From: Perna viridis
Taxonomy: Eukaryota
DNA length: 64,000 nucleotides
NCBI GenBank assembly: GCA_037379345.1
Contig: CM074514.1
Coordinates: 52,390,001 to 52,454,000, forward strand
Direction: 5' to 3'
A program made the position numbers. The stretch's first letter is position 1. Each line of letters starts with the position of its first letter. Positions 6,201-9,200 of the stretch are shown one piece after another.

Positions 6201-9200
6201 ATAAGCATACTGATTCTATTGGTCTGTTTGTTTCAACTACGTCAACAGTGGTGAGTTTTTTTTTCTTTTTGTTTATGTATTGTTTTGTTTTGTTTTTGTT
6301 TTGTTTTGTGTTTTTGTTTTCTTTCTTTTTTGTCGTAGCACGTTAGCTCACGAATTGCCTTTATTTAGATAATAACTTACTCTTATGGACTGTTTTATTT
6401 GTAATACAGTATAAAACATTTTGGATTATGGTTAACGGTATTTGATATTTCAAAGAATAAACACTGTGGTAAAAATAGTTATTTATTTTACTCAGTGAAA
6501 TGTCAAGTATGTATGCACATGACGGAATGAGAAATATAAAACTAGTTATGGCCATAGTCTTCATTTTAGGTACAAACTTACGAAACAAAATCAGGACATA
6601 TCAGATGGAAGCAATAAAAAAGGTCATGATAAATGTTTAGATAATACAAAACATGATAATCTTCCAATATATCTTGATCCTAATTTACAAAAGGCCGTCT
6701 TCCATAAAAAGAACACTTCTGAAAGAAGGAAAATGGCGCATGAACATCACGTGTATGATCAATGCAAGATGTATTCCACAACTGAGACGTCAAAGTCTAA
6801 ATCCACGAGGCCTTCTTCTAGTTATCAGTCACTAAAGTTAACACCAAAACAAAAGGACGAACTGACAGACAGCTTTAAAAAGTTAAAATCTAGAACGGAA
6901 GCCTTCAATGACGAAGTAAAAAATAAATCTCGGTGTTATGACATCCCTATCAATGAGTTTAAGGACCCCAATTATGCAAAACCTTGGGGCAAAAAGGTTA
7001 ACTCGGATGACAAAAGTAAAGATGAAAACGACGGCGCAAACTATGCAGATCCTTGGTCCAATGATCCAGAATCAGATGACGAAACAAAAGAATCCACCCG
7101 GACGGCTAGATACTTGATGAAAAAATTACGTAGCACCGGAATTTTTAATCCTAAAAAAACTCACTGCCAAGAACCCTACGAAGAAACAGAAATAGATGTC
7201 CGTCGATTCGTATATGACAAACCTACCTGTAAACCGGAAGTAATGGGGGAAAAAGAACAATGGAAAAATTATAGATACCAACCAAAGAGTCAAGAAGGAA
7301 CCTCAGTGTTGACTCCTGGAAGAGGATTGAGTGTTGTAAACCACCCCTCAATTCACAGGAGTGCAACCTTTACAAAGACGCCACAAAATCCACCGGACCT
7401 CATATTGCATGATTCAAATTGTTCAGAAGAGCCGTCTGTGTCAGGAAACGATGAACAGTTGGAGGGGAAATTAAAAACAAAAAAGAAAACAAAGAGAAAA
7501 AAAGTAATGCAAAGATTATCACGTTTCTCTTTGAAGTCAACGATTTTTTCCACAGGGAAAAGACCACATTCAGAAGCTGAAGTTGAACATGTGTATGAAA
7601 CCCCTAACCCTATAGGCCGATCTGCGGCAAATACTAGGTCATTGCTGGTTAATCCGGAAAGCATTGGTCTTAGACCATTACAACAGTCTCAGTACCGGTT
7701 TCAACGTGATCATCGATCTAATTACGAATTGGCAAGACCTATCGTTGTTGAGGGAGAAACTACGCAGGAACTCGATCGACGAATGCCGACAGCACCCAGA
7801 TTAAATAATATCTATGCTGTTGCACAGCCAATTACTAGTTCAAGTAGCATACAAGAAGAAACCAATGAGACAAGACCTATTTATTTTGAACCAGTAGTTT
7901 GATTGGTGTAACTATTTACCTACACGTCTCTATAGGAATCAGGCTTTTGTCGAAAAAACGAAGGAACGTTCCTGTCAGTCCATCACCTGTGCGGCAATGT
8001 ATTTTCTTCGAAAGACATCTTCACTTTAATTGATCGGTAGATAGATTGATTACTTGAGTGTGGTTTATGTCCTGTAACGGATATTAAATTAATGAAAGTC
8101 TTAAAATTTTCAATGTTATATTAGAAAACTATCTAATTTGCAGGAGATTGTTTATTTAAAGTGCATTTCAGATATTATACCTTGTGTCGCTTTTTTATCT
8201 TAATGTGCATGATTCTTATTTTCATTTTTCCACTGTACTTCAGTAGTCAACATACCCTGCAAATACAATATGTAACAATGTAAATATCATTTGTACATAC
8301 GTAACACTATGAATATCATATGCACACATGTACCAGCGTTGAATACCATATGTACACATGTACCAGCGTTGAATAACATGTACACATGTACCAGTGTGAC
8401 TGGCATATGTACACGTGTACAACTGTGAATGTCATAAGTACACATGTACCAGTGTGAATGTCATATATACACCCGGAACACTCTGCATGTCATATGTACG
8501 CAAGAATTCGATTTAATTGAATTGCATAGATTTAATAGTCAATCGCTCAATCAATTTGTCCAATGCACCTTATCCCGTTTTTGATTTGATAATCTGTTCG
8601 AACAATCGTTTTCCTTCGAACTTGACAAACAAGAATTATTGTAACACTTTATAAATAGTACAGCCAAGTACTGTACGCAAAGCTTACCTGATGTCTTTTT
8701 TCCTGATCTTCAGTTTTTATTTGTAATATATTTTATTCGGACCGCTGCATTGTGTTTGTACTGGTCATGTATTTGGATCTTGACGTATTTGAATTGTACC
8801 ATTGTACACGCTTCGGTTTGTTATGATATGACTCACCCCATATATGAAATACATGTCGTAATATCAAGTGGCTGTGATAAGTACTGTAGACAAACGAACA
8901 GATGGACGGACAGCATGATCACTATGTACCACTTGCAAAGAAAAGTTGGTATAAAAATGGAATCAAGTAGTCAAGTAGTTTCCTAAGTAGCAAATAAAGA
9001 AAAAATCAGGGTATAGTCATGTCCAAATCATTGTACATGGTAAGAAATTATGCTGTTAATATTGTTTCTCGTTCGAACAGATGGACGGACAACATGATCA
9101 CTATATACCACTTGCAAAGAGCAGTAGTTATAAAAATAGAATCAAGTAGTTTCCTGAAAAGCAAATTAAAAAAAATCAGGGTACAGTAATGTCCAAATCA

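What the first reader, a model, noticed from the sequence alone, without database searches (positions are those of the whole stretch)
6570..7902. Non-catalytic receptor tail with seven YxxP motifs and an ITIM-like site
Seen: the ~440-aa hydrophilic tail sits in a single exon and holds YLDP, YDIP, NYAKPW, NYADPW, YDKP, YETP and YFEP, plus SSYQSL (ITIM consensus), YEET, NYEL and IYAV. No kinase or other folded domain is recognisable. Known: pYxxP arrays recruit Crk, Nck and Abl SH2 domains (p130Cas, Dok, nephrin), and ITIMs recruit SHP phosphatases. Inference: a glycan-sensing receptor wired directly to SH2 adaptors, possibly an undescribed invertebrate immune or adhesion receptor class.
Basis: partly seen in the sequence, partly recalled or inferred. 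Interest (0 to 1): 0.7.

Follow-up and report, generated by a model that had tools for sequence, protein, structure and literature searches.

The report
Mussel receptor tail with conserved tyrosine motifs
The last exon of a mussel-type membrane receptor gene encodes a long, floppy intracellular tail whose tyrosine-x-x-proline motifs are kept across species, so it probably works as a kinase-less docking platform much like the vertebrate DCBLD receptors, though no experiment has tested this.

Summary
Window 6570-7902 (+) is the last exon of an eight-exon type I membrane protein gene. YxxP occurs 7 times against 1.26 expected; 0 of 20000 shuffles reach 7.

The tail matches no Pfam family and is predicted disordered. 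Relatives appear only in three Mytilus species and a few unnamed records, none characterised. Tyr is the most conserved common residue: 11 of 18 are identical in three lineages, against 61 of 425 other residues. No conserved Tyr column shows Phe. Five YxxP sites, YEET and two Yx[LF]AxP sites are conserved. YDIP and one NYAxPW are lineage-specific.

The Mytilus californianus model joins the membrane helix to the long tail at the same Trp. This argues against the short-tail splice.

Best reading: a non-catalytic scaffolding receptor phosphorylated by Src/Abl-type kinases that docks Crk/Nck-class SH2 adaptors. It works like DCBLD1/2 but is not detectably related to them.

The ITIM and "glycan-sensing" parts are weak. 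Phosphorylation, binding, expression and any immune role are untested.

The parts
527..581 (+). Tentative exon 1: ATG plus a hydrophobic 18-aa signal-peptide-like stretch (MERIRFIFLSWFVCVCFH), followed by a GTAAGT donor. Its phase fits exon 2.
   Evidence: It has no homology support: the first 40 residues of P0032 gave no tblastn match in the window. Treat it as a candidate only.
1898..2013 (+). Exon 2: first half of a Cys-rich ectodomain module (CFGGLKND...C..YC...FALV).
   Evidence: tblastn of M. californianus P0032 residues 41-81, E = 1e-4. AG/GT borders and phase fit. No Pfam hit.
3494..3638 (+). Exon 3: second half of the Cys-rich module (CYCF...CFAKCPDFSKKMYCGSEDG..VYE).
   Evidence: tblastn of P0032 residues 85-131, E = 1.4e-8. 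Borders and phase fit. No Pfam hit. WSC-family structural neighbours of the P0032 ectodomain have TM 0.41-0.45, a lead only.
3934..4047 (+). Exon 4: Cys-containing segment (DCLAV...ECSTRLQYACLK) resembling the C-terminal end of a C-type lectin-like domain.
   Evidence: Borders and phase fit. No tblastn match and no Pfam hit on the window sequence itself. In P0032, the segment lying between the matches to exons 3 and 5 aligns to Lectin_C profile positions 78-106, E = 0.29, below the cut-off.
4684..4827 (+). Exon 5: segment resembling the N-terminal part of a C-type lectin-like domain (SFYEAKLLCEN...YWVGTFR).
   Evidence: Pfam Lectin_C E = 0.11, 13.7 bits against a cut-off of 22.6. tblastn of P0032 residues 180-221, E = 0.002. 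Borders fit.
5474..5773 (+). Exon 6: Thr/Ser-rich stalk and the start of the membrane segment (..KCGLYCM).
   Evidence: tblastn of P0032 residues 232-321, E = 3e-4. Borders fit.
6178..6250 (+). Exon 7: transmembrane helix LTILVSVISILILLVCLF followed by QLRQQ. It ends with TG, which with G6570 makes a Trp codon.
   Evidence: tblastn of P0032 residues 316-346, E = 4e-4. The matching P0032 segment is modelled as a helix, the only part of that model with block-mean pLDDT above 70.
6570..7902 (+). Exon 8: the 443-aa cytoplasmic tail plus the stop codon. This is the finding itself.
   Evidence: Relatives: P0002 E = 3e-32, P0003 E = 2e-17; P0032 E = 3.8e-37 by tblastn. Predicted disordered.
6670..6708 (+). 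Conserved island YLDPNLQKAVFHK (Y34). It spans the alternative acceptor at 6694.
   Evidence: It aligns to YLDPSNQKAVFHK in Mytilus and YLDPANQTAVFNK in P0003. Column 34 is Tyr in 28 of 33 rows, His in 4, gap in 1.
6817..6834 (+). SSYQSL, the ITIM-like site (Y85). It is only partly conserved.
   Evidence: Of 33 rows, Tyr in 6, His in 15, gap in 12. The pattern is not enriched.
6937..7056 (+). Part of a stretch largely specific to the window's lineage, holding YDIP (Y123), NYAKPW (Y135) and NYADPW (Y158). One NYAxPW corresponds to YEDPW or YNVPW in relatives; the other is an extra copy.
   Evidence: MAFFT pairs the relatives' motif with either copy depending on the run.
7177..7278 (+). Best-conserved core: YEETEI (Y203), VYDKP (Y215), EQW (W231) and YRY (Y234, Y236).
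   Evidence: Y203, E204, E205, T206, I208, Y215, D216, P218, W231, Y234 and Y236 are invariant in all 10 rows of A1. The Tyr columns are Tyr in 33 of 33 rows.
7468..7503 (+). Polybasic stretch KLKTKKKTKRKK (residues 300-311).
   Evidence: Relatives are also basic here, and K300 and K302 are conserved. Function unknown.
7594..7893 (+). C-terminal conserved Tyr sites: VYETPNP (Y342), NYELARP (Y385), IYAVAQP (Y415) and the terminal IYFEP (Y438).
   Evidence: All four Tyr are identical in the window, P0002 and P0003. They are Tyr in every row that covers them: 19, 11, 19 and 19 rows, the rest being gaps.

Best explanation
The segment is the last exon of a gene for a single-pass type I membrane protein. 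The protein has a Cys-rich ectodomain, a Thr/Ser-rich stalk, one membrane helix and a 443-residue disordered cytoplasmic tail with no enzyme domain.

The tail is a string of short conserved linear motifs centred on tyrosines. The most likely mechanism, which is inferred and not shown, has three steps. First, ligand binding or clustering of the ectodomain brings cytoplasmic Src-family and Abl-type tyrosine kinases to the tail. The conserved YEET(x)I resembles the preferred Src SH2 site, and four sites fit the Abl-preferred [ILV]YxxP. Second, these kinases phosphorylate the array. Third, the phosphorylated YxxP sites dock SH2 adaptors of the Crk/Nck/Abl class, linking the receptor to cytoskeletal and small-GTPase signalling.

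It therefore works like the vertebrate scaffolding receptors DCBLD1/2 but shows no detectable sequence relationship to them. Shown here: the gene structure, the motif excess, the disorder prediction, and Tyr-centred conservation across three mussel lineages. Inferred: phosphorylation, the kinases, the adaptors and the biological role.
For: 1. Gene model. Eight exons all have AG/GT borders and compatible phases with no stops. Six of the eight exons match M. californianus LOC127708340 (P0032, 742 aa) in the same order; exon 1 and exon 4 gave no match.
2. YxxP excess in the window tail: 7 against 1.26 expected, 0 of 20000 shuffles. In each of the 5 relatives tested: 6 against 0.93-1.17 expected, with 0 to 3 of 5000 shuffles reaching it. 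[ILV]YxxP: 4-5 against about 0.2, 0 of 5000 in all 6 sequences. YxP and YxxxP are not enriched.
3. Conservation. Tyr 11 of 18, Trp 2 of 3, Pro 12 of 31 and Phe 2 of 11 are identical in three lineages; overall 72 of 443.
4. Conserved Tyr columns never show Phe among 33 rows. Together with the low conservation of Phe, this fits a need for the hydroxyl group.
5. Motif classes for other SH2 types are absent: YxN 0 and YxxM 0.
6. Disorder: mean pLDDT 41.6. No Pfam family and no PDB relative.
7. Precedent. DCBLD2 has seven and DCBLD1 eight intracellular YxxP motifs. [quoted passage not shown]
8. Crkl homologues are reported for molluscs, and related proteins are encoded in sponge genomes (PMC7260276, passages read; the tree is in a supplement I could not see).
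Against: - There are no expression, phosphorylation or binding data of any kind.
- Only three to four independent lineages are available. P0003, P0031 and P0004 are 79-92% identical to each other, so the statistics rest on few events.
- Alignment programs favour pairing Tyr and Trp, which inflates their apparent conservation in disordered sequence.
- Two of the seven YxxP sites are lineage-specific. One YxxP of the relatives (IYATP/IYETP) is lost in the window, where CSEEP aligns.
- Other conserved islands have no Tyr (GRGLS, NPPDxIL, RST, the polybasic stretch), so the tail does more than pTyr docking.
- The SH2 and kinase preferences for YEEI and [ILV]YxxP are recalled, not tested here.
- The family was found only in mussels, so a general metazoan pathway link is not shown.
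Confidence: 0.55

Rival explanations
1. The conserved Tyr-centred islands are not phosphorylation sites. They would be sorting or endocytosis signals, or contact points for non-SH2 partners such as adaptor complexes or cytoskeletal linkers. The receptor would then mainly traffic or anchor rather than signal through pTyr.
For: Several conserved islands lack Tyr (GRGLS, NPPDxIL, the polybasic 300-311). SSYQSL also fits a YxxL-type sorting signal. No phosphorylation data exist.
Against: Classical sorting signals need a bulky hydrophobic residue at +3 (recalled), whereas the conserved sites have Pro. NPxY is absent, 0 observed. The excess is specific to the YxxP spacing. Tyr is never replaced by Phe in the conserved columns, whereas aromatic contact sites usually tolerate Phe (recalled).
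Confidence: 0.15
2. The tail acts chiefly as an inhibitory receptor through the ITIM-like SSYQSL, which would recruit an SHP-type phosphatase.
For: S-x-Y-x-x-L is present in the window, in all three Mytilus sequences (SGYQEL) and in P0031 (SGYQDL).
Against: One match is what chance gives: 0.59 expected, P = 0.45, and it is not enriched in any relative. The Tyr is His in 15 of the 21 rows covering the column, and the region is missing in 12 shorter forms. It is a single site, whereas many ITIM receptors carry two (recalled).
Confidence: 0.1
3. The membrane exon is spliced mainly to the AG at 6692-93, with the exon starting at 6694. This changes frame and gives a 46-47 residue tail, so the long frame would be rarely or never translated.
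For: An AG is present there, and the pyrimidine content upstream is similar: 12 of 20 against 13 of 20 for the 6570 acceptor. No RNA data were available.
Against: The conserved peptide YLDPxNQKAVF runs straight across 6694 in the long frame. Residues before 6694 are also conserved. The M. californianus model joins its membrane helix to the long tail at the same Trp (...KIREKW|NGS... against ...QLRQQW|YKL...). A 459-codon open frame has chance probability about 1.7e-15.
Confidence: 0.03
4. After cleavage within or near the membrane, the tail is released and acts in the nucleus, with the polybasic stretch serving as a nuclear localisation signal.
For: The polybasic run KLKTKKKTKRKK, with basic stretches at the same place in relatives.
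Against: No DNA-binding or transcription-related domain was found. Polybasic stretches in receptor tails more often bind acidic membrane lipids (recalled). Nothing indicates cleavage.
Confidence: 0.04

Closest known systems
DCBLD2 (ESDN/CLCP1) and DCBLD1, vertebrate transmembrane scaffolding receptors
   Same: Both are single-pass and non-catalytic, with a long tail carrying 7-8 YxxP motifs. The motifs are kept in number and position while the rest of the tail diverges to about 40% identity. In DCBLD the motifs are required for CRK/CRKL SH2 binding and are phosphorylated by Fyn and Abl (PMC6029619, passages read). The window tail shows the same count (7) and the same conservation pattern.
   Different: The ectodomain is not CUB-LCCL-discoidin: no such Pfam hits appeared. 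No sequence similarity was found; an exhaustive phmmer search returned only four mussel-type clusters. The tail is about twice as long (DCBLD tail length is recalled). It carries extra conserved motifs: YEET, YRY, Yx[LF]AxP twice, and a terminal YFEP. Binding and phosphorylation are untested here.
Mytilus californianus LOC127708340 (P0032), M. galloprovincialis VDI18749.1 (P0002) and M. edulis CAG2252135.1 (P0005)
   Same: They are true relatives. The tail is 32-34% identical (E = 3e-32 for P0002), and the P0032 model matches six of the window's eight exons in the same order. Each has 6 YxxP sites.
   Different: All are uncharacterised ('Hypothetical predicted protein', 'unnamed protein product', 'uncharacterized protein'), so they explain nothing about function. 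The window protein has an extra stretch, largely unmatched in the relatives, that includes a predicted helix at 92-119 and two extra YxxP sites. It lacks the IYATP site.
p130Cas substrate domain and Dok-family docking proteins
   Same: Both have arrays of YxxP sites in disordered sequence that recruit Crk/Nck-class SH2 domains after Src/Abl phosphorylation (recalled; the Crk-YxxP rule is also stated in PMC6029619).
   Different: Those are cytosolic proteins with SH3 or PH/PTB domains. This protein is membrane-anchored with no such domain and is not detectably related to them.
Nephrin
   Same: A transmembrane, non-catalytic protein whose tail Tyr motifs recruit Nck (recalled).
   Different: Nephrin has an Ig/FnIII ectodomain and YDxV-type sites (recalled). 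No similarity was found.

Membership tests
DCBLD scaffolding receptor family | CUB, LCCL and discoidin (FV/FVIII) ectodomain | tested here: not met
   No such Pfam matches in the window exons or in the full-length relative P0032.
DCBLD scaffolding receptor family | Single-pass membrane protein with a non-catalytic tail carrying 7-8 YxxP motifs | tested here: met
   Membrane-helix exon 6178-6250 plus a 443-aa tail with 7 YxxP sites and no Pfam domain.
DCBLD scaffolding receptor family | YxxP motifs conserved among orthologues while the rest of the tail diverges | tested here: met
   Five of the 7 YxxP positions are identical in three lineages at about 32% overall identity. Tyr 11 of 18 against 61 of 425 other residues.
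DCBLD scaffolding receptor family | Sequence homology to DCBLD tails | tested here: not met
   phmmer against 1,835,955,588 representatives gave 4 proteins at E <= 0.001. All are mussel-type or unnamed and none is a DCBLD. The profile search gave 5 of 3764 candidates, again none.
DCBLD scaffolding receptor family | Phosphorylation-dependent binding of the CRK/CRKL SH2 domain | not testable with these tools
   Needs pull-downs or phosphoproteomics. No SH2 sequence of this organism was on hand for a complex prediction.
ITIM-bearing inhibitory receptors | Cytoplasmic [SIVL]xYxx[ILV] that is conserved and functional | tested here: inconclusive
   There is one match (SSYQSL), which is the chance expectation (0.59, P = 0.45). 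Of 33 rows the Tyr is kept in 6, is His in 15, and the region is absent in 12.
ITIM-bearing inhibitory receptors | Recruitment of an SHP-type phosphatase | not testable with these tools
   An experimental question.
C-type lectin receptors | A C-type lectin-like domain recognised above the Pfam cut-off | tested here: not met
   Lectin_C E = 0.11, 13.7 bits against 22.6 for exon 5. E = 0.29, 12.3 bits for the P0032 ectodomain. The C-terminal-like piece lies before the N-terminal-like piece.
C-type lectin receptors | Ca2+/sugar-binding motifs (EPN or QPD, plus WND; motif definitions recalled) | tested here: not met
   None of these tripeptides occurs in the translations of exons 2-5, which I read by eye.
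WSC-domain proteins | WSC domain (PF01822) match | tested here: not met
   No WSC hit at E <= 5 for the exons, at E <= 1 for P0032, or at E <= 10 for its ectodomain.
WSC-domain proteins | WSC-like fold | tested here: inconclusive
   In the Atlas structure search of P0032 residues 25-230, 6 of 10 rows are WSC families at TM 0.41-0.45 and 2 of 10 are Lectin_C at 0.45-0.46. All are below 0.5. My own AlphaFold2 model of P0032 was too poor to search with: mean pLDDT 38.6.
Cas/Dok cytosolic docking proteins | SH3 (Cas) or PH plus PTB (Dok) domain beside the YxxP array | tested here: not met
   No such domain in the tail, and the protein is membrane-anchored.

The most novel reading that the evidence does not exclude
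Mussels evolved, independently of vertebrate DCBLD, their own family of kinase-less scaffolding receptors. An unusual ectodomain, with a WSC-like module followed by a C-type-lectin-like domain whose halves appear in swapped order, would sense an extracellular ligand, possibly a glycan. It would be wired directly to Src/Abl kinases and Crk/Nck adaptors through a turnover-prone array of pYxxP sites. That would give a lineage-specific route from surface recognition to the actin cytoskeleton, for example in haemocyte phagocytosis or adhesion.
Probability: 0.2. Interest if true: 0.6.

Novelty: new variant of a known kind. Interest (0 to 1): 0.38.

Why it matters
If the inference holds, this is a lineage-restricted, sequence-unrelated counterpart of the DCBLD-type scaffolding receptors. 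It would show that "membrane anchor plus disordered YxxP array" has arisen more than once in animals. It would also give a compact natural example of motif-array evolution. The number of YxxP sites stays at 6-7 while individual sites are gained, duplicated and lost.

For bivalve biology it nominates an uncharacterised receptor family for haemocyte or epithelial signalling. The practical value is modest until expression and phosphorylation are shown.

Tried and rejected
- Pfam on the tail and on each exon: nothing at or near any cut-off. Pfam on P0002, P0003, P0005 and P0032: nothing.
- A sub-threshold THSD1_N match appears in P0032 only (E = 0.042 and 0.008). It was not reproduced on the window's exon 2 and is left as a lead.
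- Word-index search for longer proteins: 0 of 3180 candidates.
- PDB sequence searches with P0032 and with the tail profile: only chance-level rows, E = 0.67 and 1.9.
- Atlas search with the tail: best score 0.76 and recognition 974, so uninformative.
- AlphaFold2 of P0032 without an alignment: mean pLDDT 38.6, ectodomain blocks 30-56. It was too poor, so no fold search was run.
- Alignment A3 (P0032 plus the window exons as separate rows) smeared the short exons over the whole length and was not used.
- Rfam on the whole window: 0 matches.
- DNA direct repeats within the exon: only short, weak pairs. A duplication origin of NYAKPW/NYADPW is therefore not shown at DNA level.
- No second copy of the tail in the window.
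- Literature: 'YxxP' + 'Mytilus' gave 2 papers with 1 listed, which was irrelevant. 'WSC domain' + 'bivalve' + 'transmembrane' + 'tyrosine' gave 0. 'transmembrane scaffold' + 'YxxP' gave only the two DCBLD papers.
- Complex prediction was not used because no SH2 partner sequence from this organism was on hand.
- The spliced model was searched exon by exon only. The step of joining the exons into one protein for a search or a fold was left out.
- The genome-contig collection holds only bacteria and archaea, so it was not scanned.
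Full report
**What is there.**
The window is AT-rich (about 65% A+T) with one run of N at 36833-36962, which I left untouched. On the + strand an open frame of 459 codons runs 6523..7902. It is the second longest in the window. From base composition its chance probability is about 1.7e-15.

The upstream exon 6178-6250 encodes LTILVSVISILILLVCLF followed by QLRQQ. It ends with TG, and G6570 completes a Trp codon, so the phases fit.

**Is it more than chance?**
- YxxP occurs 7 times against 1.26 expected from composition. None of 20000 shuffles reach 7.
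- [ILV]YxxP occurs 4 times against 0.18, 0 of 5000.
- The excess is specific to this spacing. YxP (1 against 1.27) and YxxxP (1 against 1.26) are not enriched.
- The ITIM pattern is not enriched: 1 against 0.59, P = 0.45. YxN, YxxM and NPxY are all absent.

**The gene.**
Eight exons were placed. The first is tentative.

| Exon | Coordinates | Content |
|---|---|---|
| 1 | 527-581 | signal-peptide-like, tentative |
| 2 | 1898-2013 | Cys-rich module, first half |
| 3 | 3494-3638 | Cys-rich module, second half |
| 4 | 3934-4047 | C-type-lectin-like, C-terminal piece |
| 5 | 4684-4827 | C-type-lectin-like, N-terminal piece |
| 6 | 5474-5773 | Thr/Ser-rich stalk |
| 7 | 6178-6250 | membrane helix |
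| 8 | 6570-7902 | tail and stop |

All have AG/GT borders, compatible phases and no stops. Six of them match, in the same order, the 742-aa model of Mytilus californianus LOC127708340 (P0032). The tblastn E-values are 1e-4, 1.4e-8, 0.002, 3e-4, 4e-4 and 3.8e-37. The first 40 residues of P0032 and the stretch corresponding to exon 4 gave no match.

I searched the spliced model exon by exon only. The joined protein was never built, searched or folded.

**The splice question.**
That changes frame and gives a tail of 46 residues after the junction codon. The pyrimidine tracts do not separate the two acceptors: 13 of 20 against 12 of 20.

Conservation does separate them. The peptide YLDPNLQKAVFHK runs straight across 6694 and is YLDPSNQKAVFHK in Mytilus and YLDPANQTAVFNK in P0003. 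The M. californianus model also joins its membrane helix to the long tail at the same Trp (...KIREKW|NGS... against ...QLRQQW|YKL...). A minor short isoform cannot be excluded without RNA data.

**No fold, no known family.**
- Pfam finds nothing near a cut-off in the tail.
- A PDB profile search finds nothing.
- The Atlas feature search is uninformative.
- AlphaFold2 on a 6-row alignment gives mean pLDDT 41.6, with 396 of 443 residues below 50. The only confident element is a helix at residues 92-119, in a stretch largely unmatched in the relatives. The alignment is shallow, so this is supporting evidence, not proof of disorder.

**Relatives.**
An exhaustive phmmer search of 1,835,955,588 representatives gave 4 proteins at E <= 0.001:
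- a 99%-identical copy (P0001, Logan);
- M. galloprovincialis VDI18749.1 (P0002, E = 3e-32);
- two unnamed clusters (P0003, E = 2e-17; P0004, E = 2e-7).

Word-index searches added M. edulis CAG2252135.1 (P0005), M. californianus P0032 and the unnamed P0031. The counts were 1 of 2768, 0 of 3180 and 5 of 3764 candidates. All named relatives are labelled hypothetical or uncharacterised.

The window tail is 28-32% identical to them. P0003, P0031 and P0004 are 79-92% identical to each other. There are therefore three to four independent lineages, all mussel-like as far as they are named. It is not human.

**Conservation.**
Taking the window, P0002 and P0003 as three lineages, the share of residues identical in all three is as follows.

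| Residue | Identical in all three |
|---|---|
| Tyr | 11 of 18 |
| Trp | 2 of 3 |
| Pro | 12 of 31 |
| Phe | 2 of 11 |
| All non-Tyr | 61 of 425 |
| All residues | 72 of 443 |

- The Tyr against non-Tyr contrast gives Fisher P = 1.3e-5. On columns aligned in all three it is 11 of 14 against 61 of 319.
- Non-Tyr residues within -4..+5 of the conserved Tyr are identical at 24 of 91 positions, against 37 of 334 elsewhere, P = 6e-4.
- Over all 33 rows, no conserved Tyr column contains Phe. The only substitute is His at column 34, in 4 rows.
- Conserved sites are YLDP, YD(Q/E), one YxxPW, YEET(x)I, (V/L)YDxP, Y(R/K)Y, YxxPN, two Yx[LF]AxP and the C-terminal YFEP.
- YDIP and one of the two NYAxPW copies are specific to the window's lineage. 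The relatives have an extra IYATP/IYETP where the window has CSEEP. The number of YxxP sites thus stays at 6-7 while individual sites turn over.
- The ITIM-like Tyr85 is Tyr in 6 rows, His in 15 and absent in 12.

Two caveats apply. Alignment programs favour pairing Tyr and Trp, and few lineages are available.

**The ectodomain.**
'Glycan-sensing' is not established.
- Pfam gives only sub-threshold Lectin_C matches: E = 0.11 for exon 5 and E = 0.29 for the P0032 ectodomain. Oddly, the C-terminal-like piece lies before the N-terminal-like piece.
- Pfam gives no WSC match, although the Cys pattern of exons 2-3 looks WSC-like to my eye (recalled pattern).
- The Atlas structure search of P0032 residues 25-230 lists WSC families in 6 of 10 rows (TM 0.41-0.45) and Lectin_C in 2 of 10 (0.45-0.46). 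An uncharacterised mollusc cluster scores TM 0.76. All of these are leads only.
- My own single-sequence model of P0032 was too poor to use: mean pLDDT 38.6.
- The sugar-binding tripeptides EPN/QPD and WND (recalled) are absent from exons 2-5.

**Mechanism and comparison.**
The closest working analogue is the DCBLD1/2 pair. These are single-pass scaffolding receptors with seven and eight intracellular YxxP motifs. The motifs are conserved while the rest of the tail drifts to about 40% identity. They are needed for CRKL-SH2 binding and are phosphorylated site-specifically by Fyn and Abl. The same paper states that the CRK/CRKL SH2 domains bind pYxxP and that Abl kinases prefer YxxP (PMC6029619, passages read). 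Crkl homologues are reported for molluscs, and related proteins are encoded in sponge genomes (PMC7260276, passages read; the tree is in a closed supplement).

I therefore read the protein as a kinase-less scaffolding receptor. Clustering leads to Src/Abl phosphorylation of the array, which then docks Crk/Nck-class adaptors. The resemblance of YEET(x)I to the Src SH2 optimum, and of [ILV]YxxP to the Abl substrate optimum, is recalled and not tested.

It is not a DCBLD family member. The ectodomain differs and no sequence similarity was found. Other conserved islands without Tyr (GRGLS, NPPDxIL, RST, the polybasic 300-311) show that the tail has further, unknown partners.

**Verdict.**
The YxxP docking array is plausible and conserved. 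The ITIM reading is weak. The glycan-sensing and immune/adhesion roles are unsupported.
- No paper on such a bivalve receptor turned up in the three searches made.
- I rate it a new variant of a known kind, of moderate interest, pending expression and phosphorylation data.

Noticed in passing
window 14324-17986 (- strand): Exons of a cytochrome P450 gene on the opposite strand. The ORF 14324-14662 matches Pfam p450 at E = 3.6e-14. Neighbouring minus-strand ORFs at 15614-16078 and 17648-17986 look like further exons by eye, but Pfam did not confirm them.
   Followed up: partly
window 37949-39556 (+) and 51700-52461 (+): An intronless 535-codon open frame, the longest in the window, has weak leucine-rich-repeat matches below the Pfam cut-offs. 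A diverged partial second copy lies 12 kb downstream. It looks like an F-box/LRR-type gene with a fragment of a duplicate. The N run at 36833-36962 lies just upstream.
   Followed up: partly
window 5140-5379 (+) and 43785-44123 (+): Two open frames share a similar peptide (..AEDxY.xG..PC.QFLVESExLIxFCYFVCII..). One lies in the intron between exons 5 and 6 of the receptor gene. This is probably a dispersed repeat element.
   Followed up: no
window 25340-28239 (- strand): Open frames with a zinc-knuckle-like CxxC...H...C stretch (27712-28239) and neighbours, suggesting a decayed retroelement. Pfam gave nothing significant for 27712-28239 and only a below-cut-off Dam match for 25340-25807.
   Followed up: partly
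window 8268-8499: A tandem array of a 29-nt unit, about 8 copies at 78-80% matches, lies roughly 370 nt downstream of the stop codon. A (GTTTT)n-like microsatellite sits in the intron at 6255-6333.
   Followed up: no
relatives P0004/P0022 (212-219 aa) and P0006 (372 aa): In the unnamed P0003-type lineage there are shorter forms. Some lack the block holding the ITIM-like site and the YxxPW motif and end early (P0004 cluster, 12 members). Others lack a block of roughly 50-65 residues near the C-terminus (P0006 and similar). They may be paralogues, alleles or isoforms, and suggest that tail segments are lost as modules.
   Followed up: partly
P0032 residues 132-222; window exons 4 and 5 (3934-4047, 4684-4827): The piece resembling the C-terminal end of a C-type lectin-like domain precedes the piece resembling its N-terminal part. 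This holds both in the window and in the Mytilus californianus protein. It could be a circular permutation or two domain remnants.
   Followed up: partly
P0032 residues 52-91: A sub-threshold match to the THSD1 N-terminal domain (E = 0.042 for the whole protein, 0.008 for the ectodomain alone; cut-off 27 bits, scores 14-16). THSD1 is, from recall, also a single-pass protein with a long disordered tail. The match was not reproduced on the window's exon 2.
   Followed up: partly
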